A stretch of 64,000 bases of DNA from assembly GCF_035084215.1 (NCBI RefSeq), contig NC_090350.1, positions 33,728,001 to 33,792,000 on the forward strand, in the 5' to 3' direction. The notes under the pieces are model-generated. The model was given only the letters and a program-made list of their open reading frames with translations. It did no database searches and was not told the origin of the DNA. The stretch comes from Heptranchias perlo. Lineage: Eukaryota. Both the position numbers and the translations under genes were made by a program. Positions 1,372 to 64,000 of this stretch are shown piece after piece. Numbering within the stretch: the first letter of the stretch is position 1; every line of letters begins with the position of its first letter.

Positions 1372-4300
1372 CTGTAAGAACATAAAGATCGCATTTACCG
1401 AGGATGTTCCTTTAAATTATTAACACTTACAAATATATCTTTTATAGATAAGAGATAAAACAAATCGACAACTAAGGAGGACACTAGTATGCCCAGCCAT
1501 CTTTGAAAATGTATGACTACGTACAAAATAGATTGCAGTGATATTAACAAGAAATAATCAGTTTGAAATACTGCACTGTTGTGTCAAAGCATTATACTTA
1601 ACGTACTAGGAAAACAGAAGGGCAGATGAGAAGGGAAGATCGAAAGGCTCTTCTGGTTGGAACACATATCCATAAGGAATAAAAAATGAAGTGCAATTAA
1701 CCAGCGCAGCATCCTAATACTGAAGCAACATAACATTGTAACAGACTGAATGGGTCAAGAATAACAAGTTCAAAATAGATGACATAATTACAATGTTCGG
1801 CCAGACTGCTGAGATTCAGGAGGTACCAAGAGCAAAGGCTAAAAAAAGCAATAATGTTTCTTTCCTCATCAATCAGGAAGCCAATCACTGTGCTGAGGTT
1901 TTTTCTAATTTTATATCATATTTATAGATACACATAGATTAGATACATTTTCCAAATAAATATCTGAAGAGAAGATCACTGTATACCATATCTATGGATT
2001 TATATCAGTTTTGCTGACTTCCATCAAGAAATTGCCAAATGTACCTTGGGTGGTGAATTTGAAGGAAAAAAACCCTGAAATTTCCCATTGCTTAAGTGTA
2101 CATAACATCCATGATATCAGTGTGTATGTTACGTGCTGTGCGTGCCGTTCTTACGTCACAGTTGTGATATGCATGCAACCTCAACCTGATCTTCGGTGGG
2201 AAAGAAAGGAAAGCTCTGCAATATAGATCTTTTTGGATCTGTTTAAGGTCCTACTGTAAGAACTATATTCTATATAGTGCAGTAAACATCAGTCGTTCAT
2301 TCCTAGTTAGGTGAAAAGCAAGGAGAGCCAGTGCTGGACACCATATCCTAAAGTACCTGTTTGACTAAAATTGCATTAAGCAGTGTCTATTAAAACAAAA
2401 ACCAAAATGTTGGAAATACACAAGTTAGCATTTTTAAAGAGACACAAAAACATCTCAACTATTGATGGCTCAAGTAATAATAAAATGATCGTTTTTTAGT
2501 CCTAAGACACCAAGATTACTTGACTGATACCAACTATGCCAAAAGGTTTTGCATCATGCACGTGTTTCAGATTCTGTAGTGAACAGCTGCAGACAAAAGC
2601 CAGTCAAAATCTAAACGAAGGCAACAAAAACACTAGGTGGCAGTTCTGACGAAAGGTCTTCGACCTGAAACGTTAACTCTGTTTCTTTCTCCACAGATGC
2701 TGCCTCATTTGCTGAGCTTTTCCAGCATTTTCTGTTTTTATTGTGCAACAAAAACACTATGCTACTTCTAAACAACAGGAAGATACATCACGGTTGACAT
2801 TTGCCAAGCCTCTAGAACATCCAGTCAAAGCACCATAATGCCTTGCCCAACATTCCAACAGCACAAAATTCCTGGGTGGTTGAAAACCTACTATCACGGC
2901 CAGGGCCGGTGTGGGTGCAGGGGACGGGGGTGCAGGGGACAGGGTTTACAAATTTAAGCTAAAAATTAATAATGCCCTTTCCAATGCTCAGACAGTGAAA
3001 CTCCATCCAATCAAATGCCTCACAAATAAAACTCTAAATTCACTTGGGAGGCAGGCCTCCCATCTTTTCTGTAAATAAATAATCTGTAGTCCACTTACTA
3101 AATCCTGTTTGACCTGAAAGTTGGATTTTCTTCCTCAACAGCCCTACATAAGCCAACAAAGGACCAACCGGCCCTCTGTAGGCATAATTCAGCATATAAT
3201 AAAAGAACTGGTCAATTTCACAGATGTGCAACTGAATGCTTTTTTAAAAATTACAACTGTCCTGATGTTGCTCCATCAACTGATCTGCCAGCTCCGCCAC
3301 AAATAGTCTATGAAATCAATTAATGAAACAATTAGATTACTAGAACCTAGATAGCTTGACTCACAATGGCACGCCCACCTCGGAGTCAGAATTTTCTGGA
3401 TTCAAGCCCTACTCCAGAAATTGAGCACATAACCTAGTGGGCATTTCAGTCCAGTGTTGAAGGAGTACTGCGTTGTCAGAGGTGCCATCATTCAGATTAG
3501 ATATTAAACTCAGGCTCCATTTACCTGTTCAGGGGCAAATGGTCCCAATGAACTATTCAAAGAGGCAGAGTTTTGCCACTAACCTGGCCACTATCCACAC
3601 CTCAACCACTACCAAGAACAGAGTAATTAGTCATTCATCTCATTTGCTATTTGCAAACTCGCTGCTGCGTTTGCCTCTGCAAGAGCGACAGCAGTTCAAA
3701 AGTAAGTCAGTGATTGTGAAGACTTTAGGGCATGATGAAAATGTGATACGGTGCTACGTAAATGCACGTTCTTATTATTGTGGGTGGGTGCATGGGGATC
3801 TGTGAGACGGTAAATTAAATGATGGATCAGCCATTACAACCATCATCAACTGCGCTGGTAGGAATCTTGCCTGATGAAATCAGAGCTGCCATTTATAAAA
3901 TTGACAAGAAGAGCTCTCAAATAACCTCTGGAGACTTCTACTGGTAAGATATCACAATACTGCATTTGCTCTTAAAAATTGCTTTGCACATTGAAAATTA
4001 TGAGTCAGAAGGTTGTGGGTTATGTGCTTAAGTCCCTCTCTGGGACTTAAGCACATAGTCTAGCAACCAAACCATCACAATATTGAGGCAGGATCACACT
4101 GTCAAAGGTCCCTTTCTAAATCTCCCCTGCTAATTCAATCCAATTCATTGCATACATATGAGAAACACAATATTAGACAGTGTAATAATTTAACTAGTGT
4201 TAAATGGAACTTGACATTCATCTTCCTAACTTCATAGCCAATCTAAACCCTTCTGTAAATCCTTTGCTGAGTCAGTCTCCCCTACTTTTTGTTTGTCAAA

Positions 4301-8117: not shown

Positions 8118-8156
8118 TTCACCTGACGAAGGAGGAAGCCTCCGAAAGCTTGTGGA
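8118..8156 (+). ncRNA. Minimal type I hammerhead ribozyme motif
   Basis: Helix I TTCAC/GTGGA (one G:U); CTGACGA+A; stem II GGAGG-AAG-CCTCC; GAAA; palindrome AAGCTT; NUH triplet CUU. Confidence 0.75.
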
Positions 8157-8244: not shown

Positions 8245-9649
8245 GTGTTTAAGTTTGTCAGACAGTTGTTACACAGGCAGATGTGCCAGAAATAGCATAA
8301 TGGAAAAGGTGTGACAAATGCTCCCCCAACCAACACCATCAAAAACAAGTTTAACTGGTCATTTATTTCATCTACTGTTTGTAGGATTTTGTGTGTGCAA
8401 ATTTACTGCCATGTGTTCTACATAAAAACAGTGACTACACTACCTAGATTCCTACAAGCAGTACTTGAGCAGTGGTCTTAAAGATTAGCCGTTATACATC
8501 ACAACCAGACTTGAGACGTCAGACTAACTATGAGCAATGCCATGGGAGATCCATTTGGAACACTAATAAATTCAATACCTAATAGCCAGTGGATTGGCTG
8601 CCTTGGTAATAGCATTCTGTGTTCCAGCCATATTTGGTATTCAATCATTTCTTGGCTTGACCACTTGATGGAGCTCTACACAGTAGAAGAAACACAAAAA
8701 ATCAGTCTTCATGCCAACATGTCATCTATCAAACTGATCGTAAACCAACAGTTTTAGACTTACTCGTTTTAGGTAATAAAATGTGTCTCACAGTTTGAAA
8801 AGAAGCACATTTGGTACTCGAGTGTAGCCTGCACAGATTTGCAGTTTGCTAAGTTTTACAATGCATTTTTCAATTATTAATTTTAGATATCACTTAAAAA
8901 TTCACTTGGAGTGCATATAATCCACAATGAAATAATGTCATTATGATGACACATTCTGTACAATTACTTATGTATTACAGTAGTTAAAGTACCAGATAAA
9001 TGAAATTGCAAATTATCTCTTTTTGGAAATTTCCTTTCTCCTATCCTGACGAGGCTGACTCATGTCGAGTCCGATCAGGTGTGAGAACTCTGGTTGATTT
9101 TATTTCATCCCTCGATCAAGATCCTAAGGTCAATAATTGTTATAGTTAAAAATAAACTAATTCTGGAAATCCAGGGGAAAAAAAACAGAAAATGTAGGAA
9201 ATAGGTCAGTCAGCATTTAAGAAACAATGTGAGATTAACATTTTGGTAGGATCCTTCATCAGAAGATATTGTTGGTCATAGGTAATCTGTAAATTTTAAT
9301 TCAGCTAGACCATCCCTCTTTCCCTAAAATGTTTATATCGTTCTCCCTTTAAAGCATTGGTTTTCAAATTGGATCCTAACAGGTTGGCAAGGGGATTCCA
9401 GGGAATCTATGAAGTTAACAGATTTCTATCCGTCTGTCATCAGATTTCTGTATTTGTTGACATTCTAATGTTAATTCTATTGCCGCACACTTGTAAAAAA
9501 AATGTTTTCTGCAAATGATCACACTGATTTCCTTTCGCGAGCTAAAATGATCTTTCAGAAGTTATGACAGGAAGCCTCCAGGAGTGTGTCCTGTTTTGTA
9601 CAGATATAGCAATTTATGGATTTGGACAAAATTCATTCCCACCAGAACA

Positions 9650-9995: not shown

Positions 9996-10494
9996 TCCTT
10001 ATTGGTTTGGATGGAAAAGGTTACAAGTGCCTTCCCCTTCCTCCCCGAAGCCACTAATAAAACAAACACATGCTTTGTACAAACTAAAATAATGGCAATT
10101 AGTCCAAATAACAATTATTGAATTTCTGTCCATTAAATATTCAGTCCCTTGTGGTCTCCACCATCCGCAGGAGGTTTCTAACAAACCAGTTATACCCCGG
10201 CATGTAAGATCTTATTGGTTGAGGATATCCTGCCTGGCGGGTAAATAGAGTTGAGGTACAGATCAGCCATGATCGAATTGAATGGCAAAATAGGCTCAAG
10301 GGGCAGAATGGCCTACTCCTGTTCCCAAGGCAATCCTACACATCCTGGACTTGTGGATTTCTCTAAGCCTGGGACCAGACCCACCAGGAGGTCCTCCAAC
10401 TAAAGATGAGCCCAATTGGTGAAAAGTGTAGCCAATAATTGAGAAGCAACCCCTTCAGCTATTCAGGAATGCATCCTATTTTGTACAGAATTCC

Positions 10495-11683
10495 AGAGGT
10501 GAGGTGAGAGTGACTGCCCATGATATCAAGGCAGCATTTGACCGAGTGTGGCACCAAGGAGCCCTAGTAAAATTGAAGTCAATGGGAATCAGGGGGAAAA
10601 CTCTCCAGTGGCTGGAGTCATACCTAGCACAAAGGAAGATGGTAGTGGTTGTTGGAGGCCAATCATCTCAGCCCCAGGACATTGCTGCAGGAGTTCCTCA
10701 GGGCAGTGTCCTAGGCCCAACCATCTTCAGCTGCTTCATCAATGACCTTCCCTCCATCATAAGGTCAGAAATGGGGATGTTCCCTGATGATTGCACAGTG
10801 TTCAGTTCCATTCGCAACCCCTCAAATAATGAAGCAGTCCGAGCCTGCATGCAGCAAGACCTGGACAACATCCAGGCTTGGGCTGATAAGTGGTAAGTAA
10901 CATTCACGCCAGATAAGTGCCAGGCAATGTCCATCTCCAACAAGATAGAGTCTAACCACCTCCCCTTGACATTCAACAGCATTACCATCGCCGAATCCCC
11001 AACCATCAACATCCTGGGGGTCACCATTGACCAGAAACTTAACTGGACCACCCTTATAAATACTGTGGCTACAAAAGCAGGTCAGAGGCTGGGTATTCTG
11101 CGGCGAGTGACTCACCTCCTGACTCCCCAAAGCCTTTCCATCATCTACAAGGCACAAGTCAGAAGTGTGATGGAATACTCTCCACTTGCCTGGATGAGTG
11201 CAGCTCCAACAACACTAAAGAAGTTCGACACCATCCAAGATAAAGCAGCCCGCTTGATTGGCACCCCATCCACCACCCAAAACATTCACTCCCTTCACCA
11301 CCGGCGCACTGTGGCTGCAGTGTGTACCATCCACAGGATGCACTGCAGCAACTCGCCAAGGCTTCTTCGACAGCACCTCCCAAACCCACGACCTCTACCA
11401 CCTAGAAGGACAAGAGCAGCAGGTACATGGGAACAACACCACCTGCACGTTCCCCTCCAAGTCACACACCATCCCGACTTGGAAATATATCGCCATTCCT
11501 TCATCGTCGCTGGGTCAAAATCCTGGAACTCCCTTCCTAACAGCACTGTGGGAGAACCTTCACCACATGGACTGCAGCGGTTCAAGAAGGCGGCTCACCA
11601 CAACCTTCTCAAGGGCAATTAGGGATGGGCAATAAATGCTGGCCTCGCCAGCGACGCCCACATCCCATGAACGAATAAAAAAA
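10495..11683 (+). mobile_element. Non-LTR retrotransposon (CR1/L2/Jockey group), 5'-truncated, RT domain and 3' end
   Basis: ORFs 10504-10896 ([25 protein letters not shown] from FADD) and 10927-11622; 3' end GGGCAATAAATGCTGGCC...CACATCCCATGAACGAATAAAAAAA. Confidence 0.92.
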
Positions 11684-12105: not shown

Positions 12106-12309
12106 CAAGGAAAGAAAAAAAGGGAAGGTCTGCGATAGGGTGGAGGGCAGGGATGATGAAATGACAAAAGGGATGATGGTGCAATGCAAAAGGAGGGTGG
12201 TAATGGGAGAATAAAGAAACAAAAGATGGGTCCAGAGGATATGTAAATGGCAACAGCAAAACCAGCACTTTATTTTAGATTTCCAGCATTCGCAGTATTT
12301 TGCTTCTGC

Positions 12310-12865
12310 AATGGAAAGCAGGAGTCCTCAATGGAAGGCTTTCTAAGCAGGAGACCTCCCCTGCACCATTGGAGATCTGGGGTGGAGAATGTTGCACGGA
12401 GCAGTGGCAACAAATAGGTTTTTAAACCACTTTGCGGACTTCCAGGCTGCCTGTAATTTTTGCAGCCTGGATGAATCCGTGTATCATGTATACATGGAAT
12501 GTGAGAGGTTGCAGCCCCTCTCCCACTATTTGAAGGGGCTGCTCCTCAACTTCTGGCTGCATTTCAGTCCCTCGCTCCTGATCTTTGGTCGCCCGGTGTG
12601 GAAGGGGGCGGGCAAGTTGGAGGACCTCCTTGTGGATCTGCTCCTGGGCCTAGCCAATGTGGCCATCCATAGGTCTGGGTTAGACATGGCCCGTGGGGGC
12701 AGTCGCTCCGGCTGCCTGCCTCTCTCCTGCGGTTTTCTCCGCACCCGGGTGGCTTGGGAGAAGGGGCACGCGATGTCCACCAGTACGCTTGAGGCCTTCC
12801 GCGACCGGTGGGCACCGCAGGGACGGCAGTGCATAGTAGACACTGCCAACAATATTATGATTTAC
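12310..12865 (+). mobile_element. Tx1-type LINE ORF2 C-terminal fragment (zf-RVT)
   Basis: WRMLHGAVATN...ACNFCSLDESVYHVYMECERL (CCHC), homologous to 14177-15067. Confidence 0.85.
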
Positions 12866-13280
12866 ATAGAAATTACAGCACAGAAACAGGCCATTTGGCC
12901 CAACTGGTCTATACAGGTGTTTATGCTCCGCACCAGCCTCCTCCCACCCTACTTCATCTCACCTATCAACATAACCTTCAATTCCTTTCTCCCTCATGTA
13001 CTTATCTAGCTTCCCCTTAAATGCATCTATACTGTTCGCCTCAACTTCTCTATGTGGTATATATATAGGAGTAGGTGCATAAGTATCATCTCCGGGTTTA
13101 AAATTATACTGAGCGCTATTTTAAACAGTCAATGACCCACTTAAAATAACCAAAAATCGAGAATACAATTATTCAGATACCAGGATACCACCTCAGCCTG
13201 TCCTGCCTCTCTGAAGCTGCTTTTTTCAGTGTACAGGTATGTTTTTTTGTGAAGATACAGGATTTGAGCACAGAATCTAT

Positions 13281-13758: not shown

Positions 13759-13817
13759 TCCAGGCCCGACACTTCAGTGCAGCACTGAGGGGATTTGATA
13801 AGTTTCTTTTGTCTTTT

Positions 13818-14074
13818 TTTTTCTTTGTGGGGTGTGCTTAAATACTAAAACCAAACAAACCAAAACCAAGTGTTCAAATTAAAATTTTATTATCCTCGTT
13901 CAGGATGCACTCCAGCCCCTGCGGTGCCCACCGGTCGCGGAAAGCCTCAAGCGTACCGGCAGACACCGCGTGCTCCATCTCCAGGGCCACCCGGGCGCGG
14001 AGCATTCCGCGGAAGAGAGGCAGACAGGCCGAGCGACCGCCCCCATGGACCACGAGCATCCAAGACCTGTGGAT
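13818..14074 (-). mobile_element. Tx1-type LINE copy A (5'-truncated, ~260 bp)
   Basis: ORF 13874-14059 ending GTLEAFRDRWAPQGLECILNEDNKILI*; poly(A) abuts the TCTTTTGTCTTTT motif at 13805. Confidence 0.88.
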
Positions 14075-14088
14075 GTCTTTTGTCTTTT

Positions 14089-15079
14089 TTTTTGTGTATT
14101 AGGCCCCCCTTTTATAAGAAGGGGGGGGTGTGGGGTGTGCTTAAATACTAAAACCAAACAAACCAAAACCAAGTGTTCAAATTAAAATTTTATTCTCCTC
14201 GTCCAGGATGCACTCCAGCCCCTGCGGTGCCCACCGGTCGCGGAAAGCCTCGAGCGTACCGGCAGACACCGCGTGCTCCATCTCCAGGGCCACCCGGGCA
14301 CGGAGCATTCCGCGGAAGAGAGGCAGACAGGCCGAGCGAACGCCCCCACGGACCACGATCATCCTAGACCTGTGGATGGCCACCTTGGACAGGCCCAGGA
14401 GCAGGCCCACGAGAACGTCCACCGACCTGCCCGCCCCCCCCCTCACCGGGCGGCCAAAGATCAGGAGCGTGGGACTGAAACGCAGCCAGAACTTGAGGAG
14501 CAGCCCCTTCAAATAATGGAACAGGGGCTGCAGTCTCGCACACCCAGTGTACAGATGGAACACGGACTCCTCCAGGCCGCAGAAATCACAAGCGGCCTGG
14601 GTGTCCGTGAAATGGCGTAACCGCCGGTTGCACGCGACTGCTCCGTGCGCCACCCTCCACCCCAGATCCCCAAAGTAACACGGGAGGACCCCTGTATAGA
14701 GAGCCTCCCACTGGGGACCCCCGTCTCCGCCGGACGGCAGGATGGCACGCCAGGGCGAGTCCGGCCGAGAGACGAGGGCGAGGAAGTGGATGGTGTGCAG
14801 GAGCAGCCCGTACAGGAAATCCCTCCGCGCGGTGTGAAACGGCACGGAGGGAATTTCCGAGAGACGGCTCAGGTTGTGAGGCGCGGCCCCCCGAGGGAGG
14901 TTCCGAGGTTTGGCGCCGAGGAGGAACTCCGTCCGAACGGGGGTCAGGTCGGACGGGATGGCTCCGCACGCGTGAGCCGCCTCCACACCCCGAGTGGAGT
15001 CAGGGCCGAGCGCTGATTTCAACGCCCGGATGGCGATGGCCGCGTCCCCGGCACGCCACGAGGACATCCGTGCGGCGAG
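14089..15079 (-). mobile_element. Tx1-type LINE copy B (5'-truncated, ~990 bp, uninterrupted ORF2 C-terminus with zf-RVT)
   Basis: 296-aa open frame 14177-15067 with DLGWRVAHGAV...CDFCGLEESVFHLYTGCARL; CpGs retained; TSD GTCTTTTGTCTTTT at 14075-14088 and 15080-15093. Confidence 0.92.
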
Positions 15080-44545: not shown

Positions 44546-44680
44546 GTCACTCTATCTGTCCCTTATCCATACCTTCTCTGTGCCCACCTCCCAATCTCCT
44601 CTATCCCTTCTTTCTCTCCCCCCTCCTCCTCCAAACCTCCTTTCTGTCCCCCCCCCAAACCTTCTTTCTGTCCCCCCCTC

Positions 44681-45102
44681 CTGTCCCTTCTTTCTCTCCT
44701 CTTCCCCACTCCTCCTGTCCCTTCTTTCTCTCCTCTTCCCCACTCCTCCTGTCCCTTCTTTCTCTCCTCTTCCCCACTCCTCCTGTCCCTTCTTTCTCTC
44801 CTCTTCCCCACTCCTCCTGTCCCTTCTTTCTCTCCTCTTCCCCACTCCTCCTGTCCCTTCTTTCTCTCCTCTTCCCCACTCCTCCTGTCCCTTCTTTCTC
44901 TCCTCTTCCCCACTCCTCCTGTCCCTTCTTTCTCTCCTCTTCCCCACTCCTCCTGTCCCTTCTTTCTCTCCTCTTCCCCACTCCTCCTGTCCCTTCTTTC
45001 TCTCCTCTTCCCCACTCCTCCTGTCCCTTCTTTCTCTCCTCTTCCCCACTCCTCCTGTCCCTTCTTTCTCTCCTCTTCCCCACTCCTCCTGTCCCTTCTT
45101 TC
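44681..45102 (+). repeat. 34-bp polypyrimidine minisatellite, 12 perfect copies plus a partial copy
   Basis: Unit CTGTCCCTTCTTTCTCTCCTCTTCCCCACTCCTC starts at 44681, 44715 ... 44851 ... 45021, 45055, 45089 (partial); degenerate units at 44550-44680. Confidence 0.97.

Positions 45103-47345: not shown

Positions 47346-47386
<41 letters not shown>
47346..47386 (+). repeat. (GT)20 microsatellite
   Basis: Read directly from sequence. Confidence 0.95.
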
Positions 47387-47389
<3 letters not shown>

Positions 47390-47834
47390 AAGAATTGGAA
47401 ATCGCTCCATATTGTTTTCCCTACATTACTAGTGTCTATGTGTCAAAAGTAACTAATTGGCTATGATGCCCTTTCAGACATCGAGATTGTAAAAGGTGCT
47501 ATATAAACGCAAGCTTTTTTTTCCTACAATATTGGTAATTTCCAACTGCTTGTTAAAAATGGTCACTAGATGATATGAATCCAAATTTACCCCCTGTTGT
47601 ATTTACATAATCAGGTAGAGGGAGGTGATTTCGTTCATGAAAAGACTTCTCAAACCAGGTTTCATTCCTTAATACGCACTAGTAGTTATATTTGGTTTAT
47701 GCAACAAAAAACACATTTTCCCCTCCCAGGTGATCAACATTGTCATTTGCCTACTATACAATCACATTTTATTTTGTTGGTGTGTCAAGTTATATTTTCC
47801 TCGATTCATTGTTGTATTATGGTATTTGATCATA

Positions 47835-59500: not shown

Positions 59501-62500
59501 GCAAATGTCATACTTAGTTTTTTATCTTCCAGGCTGCACTGAAGCTGTTCAGAGGTCTAGATTGGATCCAAGTTCTAGCTCTATTGCTTTAATCAACTTT
59601 TTTTCTGATGTCTTGTTCATATTCAATGTCACGTTGATTTAATTAACTGTATTTGGTGATTTGCCATCGAGTACAAGGGATTTGCCAATTTATTACTGGA
59701 TGCATTTGGTACTAGTGCAGTATTGTGTTTCAGCATTTGGGTTTGAAGTCATAGTTGGCATTGGCCAAATTTGTTTTCTGTTTCCCCCCCCCACCCCATA
59801 CAGGTCAAAGTGCTGTTTGTAAGAAACCTGGCCAGCTCTGTAACAGAAGAAATACTAGAAAAGACTTTCAGTCAGTTTGGAAAACTGGAACGGGTGAAAA
59901 AGTTGAAAGATTATGCTTTTGTTCATTTTGAGGACCGGGATGCAGCAGTAAAGGTTTGTGCAAGTTCAGCTGTATAATCTATTTCAGTTGACAGCATAGC
60001 TACATACTTCGGTTAGTGGCACAAAGTACCACATTCATAGAGATTACCATGATGTTTGCAAATTTAGTGATGAATGAGGTTTTTGCAATATAAATTCATT
60101 GAAAAAGGTTGTCACCCTATTGCATGTTTAAGGTAAATGTAAGGAATCTTACAACACCAGGTTATAGTCCAACAATTTTATTTGAAAATCACAAGCTTTC
60201 GGAGATTATCTCCTTCGTCAGGTGAGTGAGTGAATGAGAGGTTCTCAAATCGCATATCTTACACTTCATGTTTAAGGTAAACTAACAGATTCGTATAAAG
60301 TTCAGAATTAATAATTGGACCATTTTGTGTACAACCCCAGGGCATGTGCTTGTAACCTGCCTGAATGTTGCTTTTTAGTAACACCATATTCTTCATTTGA
60401 TTTCCCCTTCCCCAAAACACAATTCCAGTGGAATAATGTATTCCATTTAAAACATTCATATTATTTGAACAGATTGCAATATAATTGGCATGCAAGATTC
60501 CAAATAAATTAAAAATCTAACATCTGACATTTTTACTTAAGTTCCCTCCACTTTTCAGTCACTGACCTTTCAAAACTGGGAACATTTGGAACTGTTTGCA
60601 TGTCTTGTTTGTGCTTTAGCAAGAAGCAAAATGATACTTCACCTGCAACCTAGATGGATTTCTCTAGAGGATAACCAAACTTTATGAACCAAATTTTGCT
60701 GTAGCAGGGCATCCAATGGCGTCTGCCATTGGTTAAACTTGTCTGTGCACGTCTTAGTTTTTAAATTTTTTGCATGGCAAGTTGATGAAAGTGCAAGCTG
60801 ATGACATCACAGTGAGGGAAACAGGGCATCTGGGACCTGAATGAACAGGGCAAGCAACTGAGCAACTCCTTAACCAATCAGCTTGAAGGATTGTGAAATG
60901 AACAGTGCAAGGACTGAGAAGGAAGTGTAAATTCGAGTGGGTGAATTCAATGTCGAATCAGGTACAGAAAGAGAAATTGAGAGAAACGAGGTAGAAAGGA
61001 AAAGTTTAAAAAAATTAATTAAATTTACATTTTTAAAATCTTCAACATTCAATGTCAAATCAGGTACAGAAAGATAGAAATATAGATGGGGAAAGAAAGA
61101 TTGGATTAAGAAAAAGAGAGAAAAGTAAAGTAAAACTTTTAAATTTTACTTTTTTGAAATCTCCAACAACAATTAAAACCTGAAGGAATGAGATTCCACA
61201 CTTGTAATAGTTAATTTTCAGTGCTAGAGGTTGATTGGCAGTAATTAACACTTATCACGTCATTAAAAGTATACTTAAACTGGAATGGACAAGACGTAAC
61301 TTTCTGTAACGAGGTTAGTTTGTATCTACCGCGCAAGTACAGCAAATACATTTCAGTGGTGAGGCGGTTTTCATAAAGCTAACGGTGGAGCAGCGCAGCT
61401 TGGACAGCAACTTTTGGATATTTGAATTTAACCGTGCATGTGACCCTCACCTGAAGTTGCTGTACCATTTGCACATAAATAGCAGCAAGTGCCATTAGCC
61501 TCACCGTTATTTTGACAGCAAAATCTGGGCCAATGTATGTCATCCTTCACAAAACGTGCCTTCTGAGAGTAGTGCATGCTTTGAACTACATGTGCTTCAT
61601 TTTTGTATTTGTAAAAAAAAAGTCACCTCACCAACGTAAAAATTTATTTATGAATTAACTTCAGTTATACTTCTTTAGAAAATACGCATAATGGGAATCA
61701 ACAATGCTTTGTCTTACTGAACTTTCTGTACTTGAACATTAATTTGATACATTAGAAACTTTCATAGGCATGTGAGTAAAATTGATTAGTGAATATGGCG
61801 AATTAAATTTTTGTTTTCTTTTAATTCTGAATGTATTTGGAATATATATCATAAAAGTGGTGCTTTAGTGCATAACACATTATATCATGGTGTAACATGA
61901 CGTGGAATCATTACTGCCCGTTTCCTAAACAGCAAGCTCACGTTATCAGTCCTGCTATCAGGATAAAATCCAGTTAAGGTTGGAGGGGCTTTCCCTCTGG
62001 GCTGAGAGAGAAAATCATAATTCCAGGCCATTAACAAATTAAGTACAAGATACTTTACATTTATATTGAAACCAAGTAATCAGTGACAGAGTTAGTAAGT
62101 TTGCAGATGACACCAAGATTGGTGGCATTGTGGATAGTGAAGAAGGTTATCCAGGATTGCAACGGGATCTTGATAAATTGGGCCAGTGGGCCGATGAATG
62201 GCAGATGGAGTTTAATTTAGATAAATGTGAGGTGATGCATTTTGGTAGATCGAATCGGGCCAGGACCTACTCCGTTAATGGTAGGGCGTTGGGGAGAGTT
62301 ATAGAACAAAGAGATCTAGGAGTACAGGTTCATAGCTCCTTGAAAGTGGAGTCACAGGTGGATAGGGTGGTGAAGAAGGCATTCAGCATGCTTGGTTTCA
62401 TTGGTCAGAACATTGAATACAGGAGTTGGGATGTCTTGTTGAAGTTGTACAAGACATTAGTAAGGCCACACTTGGAATACTGTGTACAGTTCTGGTCACC

Positions 62501-64000
62501 CTATTATAGAAAGGATATTATTAAACTAGAAAGAGTGCAGAAAAGATTTACTCGGATGCTACCGGGACTTGATGGTTTGACTTATAGGGAGAGGTTGGAT
62601 AGACTGAGATTTTTTTCCCTGGAGAGTAGGAGGTTTAGGGGTGATCTTATAGAAGTCTATAAAATAATGAGGGGCATAGATAAGGTAGATAGTCAAAATC
62701 TTTTCCCAAAGGTAGGGGAGTCTATAACGAGGGGGCATAGATTTAAGGTGAGAGGGGAGAGATACAAAAGGGTCCAGAGGGGCAATTTTTTCACTCAAAG
62801 GGTGGTGAGTGTCTGGAACGAGCTGCCAGAGGCAGTAGTAGAGGCGGGTACAATTTTGTCTTTTAAAAAGCATTTGGACAGTTACATGGGTAAGATGGGT
62901 ATAGAGGGATATGGGCCAAGTGCAGGCAATTGGGACTAGCTTAGTGGTATAAACTGGGCGACATGGACATGTTGGGCCGAAGGGCCTGTTTCCATGTTGT
63001 AAACTTCTATGATTCTATTCTATGACTTCCTTTTGCTTGGCAAAGGATTTTAGGCCTGGGTGGATGGAAGGAATTGAGGTAAAGGCCTGGAGATGGGAGG
63101 ACTTAGGAATAAGTAAAATCACATACTTCGGTGACTGTACCTAGTAATATTATTGATGCGATCTATATAATGGAGAAATCAGGAAAACAAAATTAGGTAT
63201 TTTGAAGTATGTTATAAAAACTAGTTGATTCTACTTGAGTATACATGCCTAGCCTAATTTAGTCGCATGAGAAGGACCATGTTGTTTTGATATGAATTCT
63301 TTTGCATAACATTTGTGCTTCCCATCAATCTTGCAATTGATTTATAAGTTGAAAATACTATTGCTTCCTTTACATTATTTTTCAATGGTGCTTGGACCAT
63401 TTGAGACCATCCAGATCAATTGTGTTTTTAGCATACTCATAAATGTGAACTGGAGGTCATTTTTTAAAATTCCTGTTTTACCAGAACAACCTCTACAAGA
63501 TATGTTCCGCAGTTTCTAATGTAAAAGATTTAAACATTAACTTAGGTTGATGACTTGGTCATTGCATGGATATGTTGCCCTCTGGTAAGTTGTTGGAGAT
63601 AGTGACATCAATAGTAATTAATAAAAATTGAAATAACTGATGCCCAGTCTGTGTTTTGGCCTCTAGTCCATATTCCAATATTCCAAAATTTCACCAGTAA
63701 AGTCTATTCAAGGAAAAAGATGCATTTGGTATATAAAATTATTAACATTGGGCCTTCCTATCCTTTTCTATCAACATTTGTAATTACATTTTTACAAATC
63801 TTTTGGGTTTTTAAAATCCCGATGGGTTTAAAATACAAACTGTTTTCAGTTGATGCCTTAGACCCATTTAGAATCAAAAGATTGGTGACTGAGGAGGGGA
63901 GATGTGTAGGGTCTGAGTGGATGAGCTGAGATGGGCCGAATGGCATTCCTCTTGTGTATCTTGTACTCATGTGATTTTTTTTGCATAGGCGATGGATCAA
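50433..64000 (+). CDS. HNRNPR: HNRNPR (heterogeneous nuclear ribonucleoprotein R), truncated by the right edge of the window
   Basis: Coding exons 50433-50592, 52331-52449, 52804-52911, 54170-54283, 56714-56890, 57136-57271, 59024-59229, 59804-59953 and 63989-> splice in frame (acidic/NURR domain plus RRM1-3). Residues diagnostic for R rather than SYNCRIP: [72 protein letters not shown]. Confidence 0.97.
50813..51084. mobile_element. MITE with perfect terminal inverted repeats (PIF/Harbinger-like)
   Basis: GTAGGGCTCAAAATTA (50813-50828) and TAATTTTGAGCCCTAC (51069-51084) are exact reverse complements; AT-rich non-coding interior. Confidence 0.75.
52331..52449 (+). CDS. HNRNPR: HNRNPR coding exon 2
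   Basis: [39 protein letters not shown]. Confidence 0.96.
52804..52911 (+). CDS. HNRNPR: HNRNPR coding exon 3
   Basis: [36 protein letters not shown]. Confidence 0.96.
54170..54283 (+). CDS. HNRNPR: HNRNPR coding exon 4
   Basis: [38 protein letters not shown]. Confidence 0.96.
54850..55195 (+). mobile_element. CR1 LINE 3' end fragment
   Basis: GATAGAGGTCTTT.AAGATAATGAAAGG; GAGTGGTAAGAATGTGGAAC; 3'UTR CCTGTTTCTGTGCTGTA. Confidence 0.75.
56714..56890 (+). CDS. HNRNPR: HNRNPR coding exon 5 (RRM1)
   Basis: [59 protein letters not shown]. Confidence 0.97.
57136..57271 (+). CDS. HNRNPR: HNRNPR coding exon 6
   Basis: [45 protein letters not shown]. Confidence 0.96.
57560..57900 (+). mobile_element. 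Deu-domain SINE (SacSINE1-like), 5'-truncated
   Basis: GCCGTCTTTCAGATGA..GTTAAACC.AGGCCC.GTCTGC..AGGTGGATGTAAAAGATCC.ATGGCACTATTTCGAAGA..GGCCAATATTTATCCCTCAACCAACATCACTAAAACAGATT plus L2-like tail. Confidence 0.85.
59024..59229 (+). CDS. HNRNPR: HNRNPR coding exon 7 (RRM2)
   Basis: [68 protein letters not shown]. Confidence 0.97.
59804..59953 (+). CDS. HNRNPR: HNRNPR coding exon 8 (RRM3)
   Basis: [50 protein letters not shown]. Confidence 0.97.
60138..60266 (-). mobile_element. Short Penelope-type retroposed element with 15-bp TSD, containing a hammerhead ribozyme
   Basis: Identical CATGTTTAAGGTAAA at 60123-60137 and 60267-60281; homologous to 8118-8244. Confidence 0.88.
60189..60225 (-). 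ncRNA. Minimal type I hammerhead ribozyme motif
   Basis: Minus strand reads TCAC CTGACGA A GGAGA-TAA-TCTCC GAAA GC TT GTGA: helix I TCAC/GTGA, 5-bp stem II, palindrome AAGCTT. Confidence 0.8.
60686..61531. mobile_element. Non-autonomous DNA transposon (Harbinger-like), ~845 bp, with an internal tandem duplication
   Basis: Imperfect TIRs GAACCAAATTTTGCTGT / ACAGCAAAATCTGGGCC; internal ~100-120 bp duplication starting ATGTC.AATCAGGTACAGAAAGA at ~60950 and ~61052. Confidence 0.6.
62092..63024 (+). mobile_element. Young CR1 (HER1-type) LINE, 5'-truncated, open ORF2 C-terminus
   Basis: SKFADDTK runs into the uninterrupted ORF 62130-62939; tail TTCTATGATTCTATTCTATGA. Confidence 0.95.
63989..64000 (+). 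CDS. HNRNPR: HNRNPR coding exon 9, first 4 codons
   Basis: ttttttttgcatag/GCGATGGATCAA = AMDQ, the expected continuation (AMD.MNG). Confidence 0.8.

What the first reader, a model, noticed from the sequence alone, without database searches (positions are those of the whole stretch)
2636..2744. 109-bp mobile unit that is little more than a hammerhead ribozyme, with a perfect 15-bp TSD
Seen: an exact 15-bp direct repeat (GCAACAAAAACACTA) brackets an insert that starts 6 nt before a complete hammerhead core (AGTT-CTGACGA-A-AGGTC/GACCT-GAAA-CG-TT-AACT). Established: Penelope-like elements carry minimal type I hammerheads with a palindromic helix III in their terminal repeats, and these are thought to work as dimers. 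Inference: this is a retroposed ribozyme-bearing mini-element, either a 5'-truncated Penelope terminal repeat or a non-autonomous retrozyme-like SINE. I do not know of a functional description for this shark family.
Basis: partly seen in the sequence, partly recalled or inferred. Interest (0 to 1): 0.72.

Follow-up and report, generated by a model that had tools for sequence, protein, structure and literature searches.

The report
Hammerhead-capped stub of Penelope-like retrotransposon
This is a short, ribozyme-shaped end piece of a common Penelope-like jumping gene, inserted between a 15-base duplication; thousands of such stubs begin at the same few bases, likely because the element's enzyme starts copying near the front of its own RNA and runs off the end.

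Summary
In detail: an exact 15-bp repeat brackets 109 bp containing a complete minimal type I hammerhead motif. It is not an independent mini-element. Bases 2641-2742 are the terminal-repeat end of a 3.1-kb Penelope-like retrotransposon (RT, CX4CxxC linker, GIY-YIG; Neptune type by motif) with about 9,000 exact motif matches in the genome. Such hammerheads are published for fish Penelope-like elements. Short copies share haplotypes with long ones and form no clade or tandem arrays. 5' ends pile up at the first bases of the hammerhead (15 of 100 within 4 nt, p about 1e-8), 30 nt below a TATA-like box, and not at the cleavage site (1 of 100). A second hammerhead family shows a similar pattern. 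Likely mechanism: priming in the 5' repeat of an uncleaved transcript, then run-off at its start. Cleavage and transcription start are untested.

The parts
2621..2635 (+). Target-site duplication, left copy (15 bp)
   Evidence: Exact repeat; empty site not seen
2636..2640 (+). 5 extra, non-family letters at the 5' junction, ending in G
   Evidence: Family copies carry a different upstream sequence
2641..2742 (+). Terminal-repeat (pLTR) piece of a Neptune-type Penelope-like retrotransposon, family positions 0 to +101
   Evidence: 97-99% identical to the best genomic hits, 18 of 28 distinct ones extending upstream in family sequence
2641..2644 (+). Family-wide pile-up of 5' ends; inferred transcript start (Inr-like; also resembles a 3' splice site)
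   Evidence: 15 of 100 unbiased copies end here; about 28% of 9,022 motif matches
2642..2678 (+). Minimal type I hammerhead motif: 4-bp stem I, CUGACGA core, extra A, 5-bp stem II, GAAA, loop-less palindromic helix III
   Evidence: Sequence; same 37-nt architecture with changed helix letters in a second family
2674..2675 (+). Predicted self-cleavage site (after GUU); not a preferred 5' end of genomic copies
   Evidence: Inferred from hammerhead consensus; 1 of 100 copies starts exactly here, 5 within 4 nt upstream of it
2735..2742 (+). 3' end at the first of two family 3'-end sites; the optional ~35-nt tail is absent in this copy
   Evidence: 49 of 100 copies end at +94..+112, 43 at +129..+152
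2743..2744 (+). 2 extra, non-family letters at the 3' junction
2745..2759 (+). Target-site duplication, right copy (15 bp)

Best explanation
The insert is a 102-bp terminal-repeat piece of a Penelope-like retrotransposon carrying a minimal hammerhead motif, likely made when the parent's RT/GIY-YIG protein nicked the target, began copying inside the 5' repeat of an uncleaved transcript and ran off the RNA's 5' end about 100 nt later. Shown: family membership, the parent ORF, two 3'-end sites, the 5'-end pile-up at hammerhead positions 0 to +3, and the scarcity of ends at the cleavage site. Inferred: the pile-up marks the transcription start (TATA-like box about 30 nt upstream, Inr-like sequence at +1); priming at the same two sites in the 3' repeat gives the long, randomly truncated copies. 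The stub lacks the upstream box and any ORF and is probably inert. In the parent, the hammerheads of the two repeats would pair through the ACGU palindrome and cleave slowly or with protein help, and cleavage is probably not part of making these insertions.
For: Parent: family runs upstream into RT/GIY-YIG sequence; L073 has two direct hammerheads 3,096 bp apart around an ORF; DKG, PKIH, YIDD, CX4CxxC and CCHH GIY-YIG motifs in genomic copies; relatives carry RVT_1 and GIY-YIG. 3' ends: 49, 43, 2 (into ORF) and 6 other, of 100, matching two RT initiation sites that bound the tail (PMC11167929, main text read). 5' ends: 15 of 100 at 0..+3, 0.052 per nt against 0.010 (+4..+19), 0.006 (+20..+34) and 0.004 (-60..-8); binomial p 4e-8 and 8e-9; 0 of 20,000 scan simulations. 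Genome-wide exact counts: 1,312, 1,171 and 872 of 9,022 matches lose the family letter at +1, 0 and -1; 64 of 90, 27 of 30 and 41 of 60 sampled are true ends. An ORF-bearing copy (L084) also starts at +2. No stable structure upstream to block RT (-3.5 kcal/mol over 80 nt). Second family: 31 of 58 copies end within 12 nt of the core, and a TATA-like box lies 36-46 nt upstream in 14 of the 15 long copies selected on that block.
Against: No raw RNA reads, CAGE or RACE: the start site is not shown. The cap signature is weak: G precedes 29 of 64 ends at +2 (p 0.008 before allowing for A-to-G decay), 10 of 27 at +1, and is not enriched at 0 (about 130 of 570). The peak has a shoulder: 14 more of 100 end at +4..+19. 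The same bases read as a 3' splice site. Drosophila Penelope has a TATA-less internal promoter with its start upstream of an intron (PMC2377424, passages), so the layout is not universal. ViennaRNA does not favour the active fold: monomer -5.9, dimer -9.7 against -22.9 kcal/mol for the dimer's best fold. A duplication of 9 bp or more was found next to only 9 of 44 short copies. The empty site was not seen.
Confidence: 0.62

Rival explanations
1. Same parent, but the 5' pile-up is a stop signal on a longer RNA: RT primed in the 3' repeat stalls or is released at the hammerhead's edge, through RNA structure, bound protein or splice-acceptor factors.
For: A raised rate of ends across the whole 5' half of the hammerhead (14 of 100 at +4..+19). 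The upstream sequence reads as branch point, pyrimidine tract and AG at +1/+2; in D. virilis the intron end maps to the 5' end of helix I (PMC4209133). 16 of 44 short copies have an inverted partner, so junction repair may shape ends.
Against: A structural block should stop RT at the 3' edge of the helices, where 0 of 100 copies end at +35..+42; upstream RNA is predicted unstructured. No shared upstream exon precedes the junctions, and duplications often abut +1/+2 directly. No intron-type joint among the 15 joints shown of 161.
Confidence: 0.22
2. An independent non-autonomous mini-element (SINE or retrozyme) that amplifies from its own short master, possibly through a circular RNA.
For: Thousands of copies of similar length; allele frequencies differ somewhat between short and long copies (position 68: C in 49 of 105 short, 15 of 67 long). 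A head-to-tail joint of 133 nt in two RNA-guess runs, not listed in the DNA run (letters between unknown).
Against: All common haplotypes of long copies occur in short ones; 26 label changes on a 90-row tree against 30.5 +/- 2.6 shuffled, where one clade would give 1. At most 1 head-to-tail neighbour among 398 loci with hits. A circle made by cleavage would join at +34, not +6. No tRNA-like head. Short copies lack the upstream TATA-like box.
Confidence: 0.08
3. Ordinary random 5' truncation; the boundary at the hammerhead is chance.
For: Penelope-like insertions are mostly 5'-truncated (PMC8557442, passages); 46 of 100 copies end upstream of -60 at scattered places.
Against: End rate at 0..+3 is 5 to 14 times the neighbouring rates in copies picked only on a downstream 22-mer, and genome-wide counts agree.
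Confidence: 0.06
4. A chance motif and chance repeat, or an assembly artefact.
For: No Rfam hammerhead hit; folding z-score only -1.59.
Against: Descriptor 15 hits against 0 in 10 shuffles; second family with the same architecture; run contigs cross both junctions without differences in X1 (same sample as the assembly).
Confidence: 0.02

Closest known systems
[quoted passage not shown]
   Same: [quoted passage not shown]
   Different: No cartilaginous fish in the text I read; 5-bp helix II closed by A-U rather than G-C; U at position 17; positions of 5' ends were not analysed in the parts read.
Poseidon of Anolis carolinensis, PAc (Frangieh et al. 2024, PMC11167929)
   Same: Two 3'-end sites bounding an optional 30-40 nt tail; uncleaved RNA as the main template; few or no ends at the cleavage site.
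   Different: PAc is Poseidon clade with its start codon in the hammerhead; this parent has the CX4CxxC linker of Neptune/Nematis and its long frame lies downstream. A 5'-end pile-up is not described in the main text read.
Neptune clade of endonuclease-bearing Penelope-like elements (as defined in PMC8557442)
   Same: Single RT plus C-terminal GIY-YIG ORF, DKG motif, Zn-finger-like linker, CCHH motif, partial tandems, inverted 5' pieces, tail.
   Different: Neptune against Nematis not resolved by a tree here; no bias for (TA)n targets was evident in the flanks viewed (not counted).
Animal non-LTR retrozymes (bioRxiv 10.64898/2026.07.22.740005)
   Same: Derived from Penelope-like pLTRs; type I hammerhead; solo monomers exist.
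   Different: Retrozymes are defined by tandem units each with a hammerhead; this copy is solo and the family shows no arrays in 398 loci.

Membership tests
Minimal type I hammerhead (Penelope type) | CUGANGA and GAAA-UH core with helices I and II | tested here: met
Minimal type I hammerhead (Penelope type) | Extra nucleotide after A9 and palindromic 15.2-16.2 positions | tested here: met
   A2653; ACGU here, AGCU in the second family
Minimal type I hammerhead (Penelope type) | Compensatory changes in helices | tested here: met
   9 of 11 pairs change on both sides, but only between two families, and rows were picked by a descriptor that demands pairing
Minimal type I hammerhead (Penelope type) | G10.1-C11.1 closing pair | tested here: not met
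   A-U here, G-U in some copies, G-C in the second family
Minimal type I hammerhead (Penelope type) | Self-cleavage as dimer or with protein help | not testable with these tools
   Needs an in vitro assay; predicted energies do not favour the active fold
Endonuclease-bearing Penelope-like element | One ORF with Penelope-type RT and C-terminal GIY-YIG | tested here: met
   P0001 alone had no Pfam hit, its relatives did
Endonuclease-bearing Penelope-like element | Partial tandem pLTR-ORF-pLTR and inverted 5' pieces | tested here: met
   L073, L090; 81 head-to-head pairs in 398 loci, some counted twice
Endonuclease-bearing Penelope-like element | Optional 30-40 nt 3' tail | tested here: met
   43 of 100 with, 49 without
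Endonuclease-bearing Penelope-like element | Retained spliceosomal intron near the 5' end | tested here: inconclusive
   Three acceptor-like sites by eye; no intron-type joint among 15 shown of 161 in contigs
Neptune clade | CX2-5CxxC linker and CCHH motif | tested here: met
   shared with Nematis per PMC8557442
Neptune clade | Placement in the RT phylogeny | not tested
Non-LTR retrozyme | Head-to-tail tandem units each with a hammerhead | tested here: not met
Non-LTR retrozyme | Circular RNA from self-cleavage | tested here: inconclusive
   One back-joint in RNA-guess contigs, not at the cleavage site
SINE | Own lineage and structured-RNA-derived Pol III head | tested here: not met

The most novel reading that the evidence does not exclude
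Penelope-like elements in this genome place the hammerhead at the very start of their transcript, and internal priming at the 5' repeat routinely yields 100-135 bp 'run-off' inserts. About a quarter of hammerhead-bearing copies would be such by-products, which would explain the thousands of solo minimal hammerheads in fish and amphibian genomes, let transcription starts be read from DNA alone, and suggest the ribozyme acts by removing the cap-bearing first 33 nt rather than by making the insertion template.
Probability: 0.45. Interest if true: 0.62.

Novelty: new member of a known kind. Interest (0 to 1): 0.4.

Why it matters
The locus itself is ordinary: one of thousands of inert stubs of a known class. 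The family statistics add something. What Penelope hammerheads do is open (PMC8557442, PMC11167929). The end map extends two-site internal priming from one lizard Poseidon to a Neptune-type element, argues that cleaved RNA is rarely the template in vivo, and predicts a transcription start to within a few bases, which one 5' RACE or CAGE experiment can test.

Tried and rejected
Rfam: no hammerhead family hit. Pfam on three broken ORF pieces: nothing. Empty site: none in X1 and X4, which are the same sample as the assembly; another organism's run covered only 2853-3024; no related genomes are held. No RNA holder was listed for the window stretch. RNA-guess contigs cover the family, with higher summed depth over hammerhead and tail than upstream, but contig depth is no measure of expression or starts, so it was not used. 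An early impression that G precedes copies starting at position 0 (8 of 10) was a selection effect and vanished in genome-wide counts. One own-genome search returned nothing because common words are skipped. One search viewed a wrong coordinate for the second family's minus-strand copy, which is at 60189-60225. The end-calling script misplaced a few ends (for example L395, L417) and three of the 100 loci (L386-L388) look like one local duplication; none of these is in the 0..+3 peak. Earlier findings: none similar. Literature searches showed no paper on this family or on a 5'-end pile-up; Repbase, subscription journals, figures and bioRxiv supplements could not be seen, and a search of three text supplements of PMC11167929 found none of the terms.

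Full report
Observation. The exact 15-mer at 2621-2635 and 2745-2759 brackets 109 bp. Positions 2642-2678 form a complete minimal type I hammerhead motif: 4-bp stem I, CUGACGA, an extra A, a 5-bp stem II with a 3-nt loop, GAAA, the palindrome ACGU in place of helix III, and U at position 17. Rfam gave no hammerhead match. A descriptor of my own found 15 such motifs in 464 kb and none in 10 shuffles; 2 belong to this family and 13 to a second family of the same length and core with different helix letters. Across 10 rows of both families, 9 of 11 pairs change on both sides. The rows were chosen by a descriptor that demands pairing and represent two lineages, so this shows a shared architecture and not many independent events.

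What it belongs to. The own-genome search gave 40 scored hits of 729 candidates at 97-100% identity. In 18 of 28 distinct other loci the family continues upstream, in some for over 1 kb, and in many it continues 3' by about 35 nt. Following this led to a 3.1-kb unit: L073 has two direct hammerheads 3,096 bp apart around an ORF. Genomic copies encode DKG, PKIH, GVAMG and YIDD motifs, a CX4CxxC linker and a GIY-YIG domain with the CCHH motif. The best protein relatives are from cartilaginous fishes and carry RVT_1, some also GIY-YIG. By the definitions in PMC8557442 (passages read) this is an endonuclease-bearing Penelope-like element of Neptune or Nematis type; Neptune is the one reported as widespread in vertebrates (bioRxiv 10.64898/2026.07.22.740005, part 1 and passages). 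No tree with named references was made. Exact motif counts are 8,719 and 9,022, lower bounds on copy number.

Not an independent element. Short and long copies share haplotypes. On a tree of 45 short and 45 long copies the label changes 26 times against 30.5 +/- 2.6 when shuffled; 26 of 500 shuffles were as low, so there is at most slight structure. Among 398 loci with hits, 4 same-strand neighbours were flagged, 3 of them split alignments of one copy, against 81 head-to-head pairs, some counted twice. There is no tRNA-like head.

End map. I took the first 100 matches on one contig of a 22-mer lying downstream of the cleavage site, which is blind to the 5' side. Numbering window 2641 as 0, 3' ends fell at +94..+112 in 49, +129..+152 in 43, into the ORF in 2 and elsewhere in 6. 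This matches the two RT initiation sites that bound the tail in the lizard element (PMC11167929, parts 1-2 of 4 read). The window copy ends at the first site. 5' ends fell at 0..+3 in 15, +4..+19 in 14, +20..+34 in 9, +35..+42 in 0, -7..-1 in 6, -60..-8 in 10, and further upstream in 46. The rate at 0..+3 is 0.052 per nt, against 0.006 over +4..+42 and 0.005 over -60..-1 (p 4e-8 and 8e-9; 0 of 20,000 scan simulations). One copy starts exactly at the cleavage site and 5 at +30..+34. Genome-wide, 1,312, 1,171 and 872 matches lose the family letter at +1, 0 and -1; 64 of 90, 27 of 30 and 41 of 60 sampled are true ends (the last after re-reading 3 script calls by eye), giving about 2,560 of 9,022, or 28%. 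Loose ends of whole-genome contigs at 2642-2644 agree (same sample as the assembly).

Mechanism. In long copies a TATA-like run begins about 30 nt upstream of +1 and the bases around +1 fit an initiator consensus (consensus recalled). The upstream 80 nt are predicted nearly unstructured, and an ORF-bearing copy, L084, starts at +2. The simplest reading is that the transcript starts at the hammerhead's first base. It then holds the priming region twice: use of the 3' one gives long, randomly truncated copies, and use of the 5' one gives 100-135 bp run-off inserts such as this one. The second family fits: 31 of 58 copies end within 12 nt of the core, and 14 of the 15 long copies selected on a TATA-like block have it 36-46 nt upstream; head-to-head partners are not independent, and upstream subfamily diversity may shorten the called extents. 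TATA and Inr-like motifs are described in rotifer pLTRs (PMC3846280, passages), whereas Drosophila Penelope has a TATA-less promoter (PMC2377424, passages).

Against this reading. The start site is not observed. An extra G marks full-length L1 junctions (PMC11702581, one passage); here G precedes 29 of 64 ends at +2 (expected 30%, p 0.008 before allowing for A-to-G decay), 10 of 27 at +1, and shows no excess at 0, so the cap signature is only suggestive. The same bases resemble a splice acceptor, as in D. virilis where the intron ends at helix I (PMC4209133, parts 1-2 of 4 read); no shared upstream exon and no intron-type joint was seen. Ribozyme activity is untested. Predicted energies disfavour the active fold, in line with reports of weak dimer-only or protein-assisted cleavage (PMC4209133, PMC11167929). 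The empty site was not found.

Verdict. A real retroposed insertion and a hammerhead motif with comparative support, but a new member of a known kind: a pLTR stub of a Penelope-like element. I put family identity at about 0.95 and the run-off explanation at about 0.6. The added value is the end map, which my searches did not find in print and which gives a precise, cheap test.

Noticed in passing
window 8119-8155 (+) and 60189-60225 (-): A second, unrelated minimal-hammerhead family, more frequent in the sampled DNA (13 of 15 descriptor hits), often as head-to-head pairs, with a TATA-like box upstream in long copies; its parent ORF was not sought.
   Followed up: partly
window 12108-12308: Head-to-head piece of the same Penelope-like family: minus-strand 3' UTR segment abutting a plus-strand tail segment.
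   Followed up: no
window 9160-9209 (-) and about 2386-2425 (-): Older, diverged fragments of the same terminal repeat.
   Followed up: no
L073:6862-6994: A back-joint of 133 nt (family +138 to +6) in RNA-guess runs X7 and X8, not listed for DNA run X1 of the same sample; letters between unknown. Could be a tandem copy or a circular RNA.
   Followed up: no
L073:6820-6870 (family +135..+180): The parent's long frame has no in-frame ATG near its start in most copies; some copies have one C fewer, which puts an ATG in frame. A further acceptor-like site lies just before it and another at window 2697 before a short upstream ORF.
   Followed up: partly
window 10432-10893, 12347-13006, 62070-62936: Reverse-transcriptase fragments of other retroelements (RVT_1, zf-RVT); no host-gene domain was found among 11 long open frames tested.
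   Followed up: no
window 13805-14325, 44600-45100, 47346-47390: Tandem duplications and simple repeats (about 303-bp and 34-bp units, GT run).
   Followed up: no
window 4021-4057: Perfect 16-bp inverted repeat with a 5-nt spacer.
   Followed up: no
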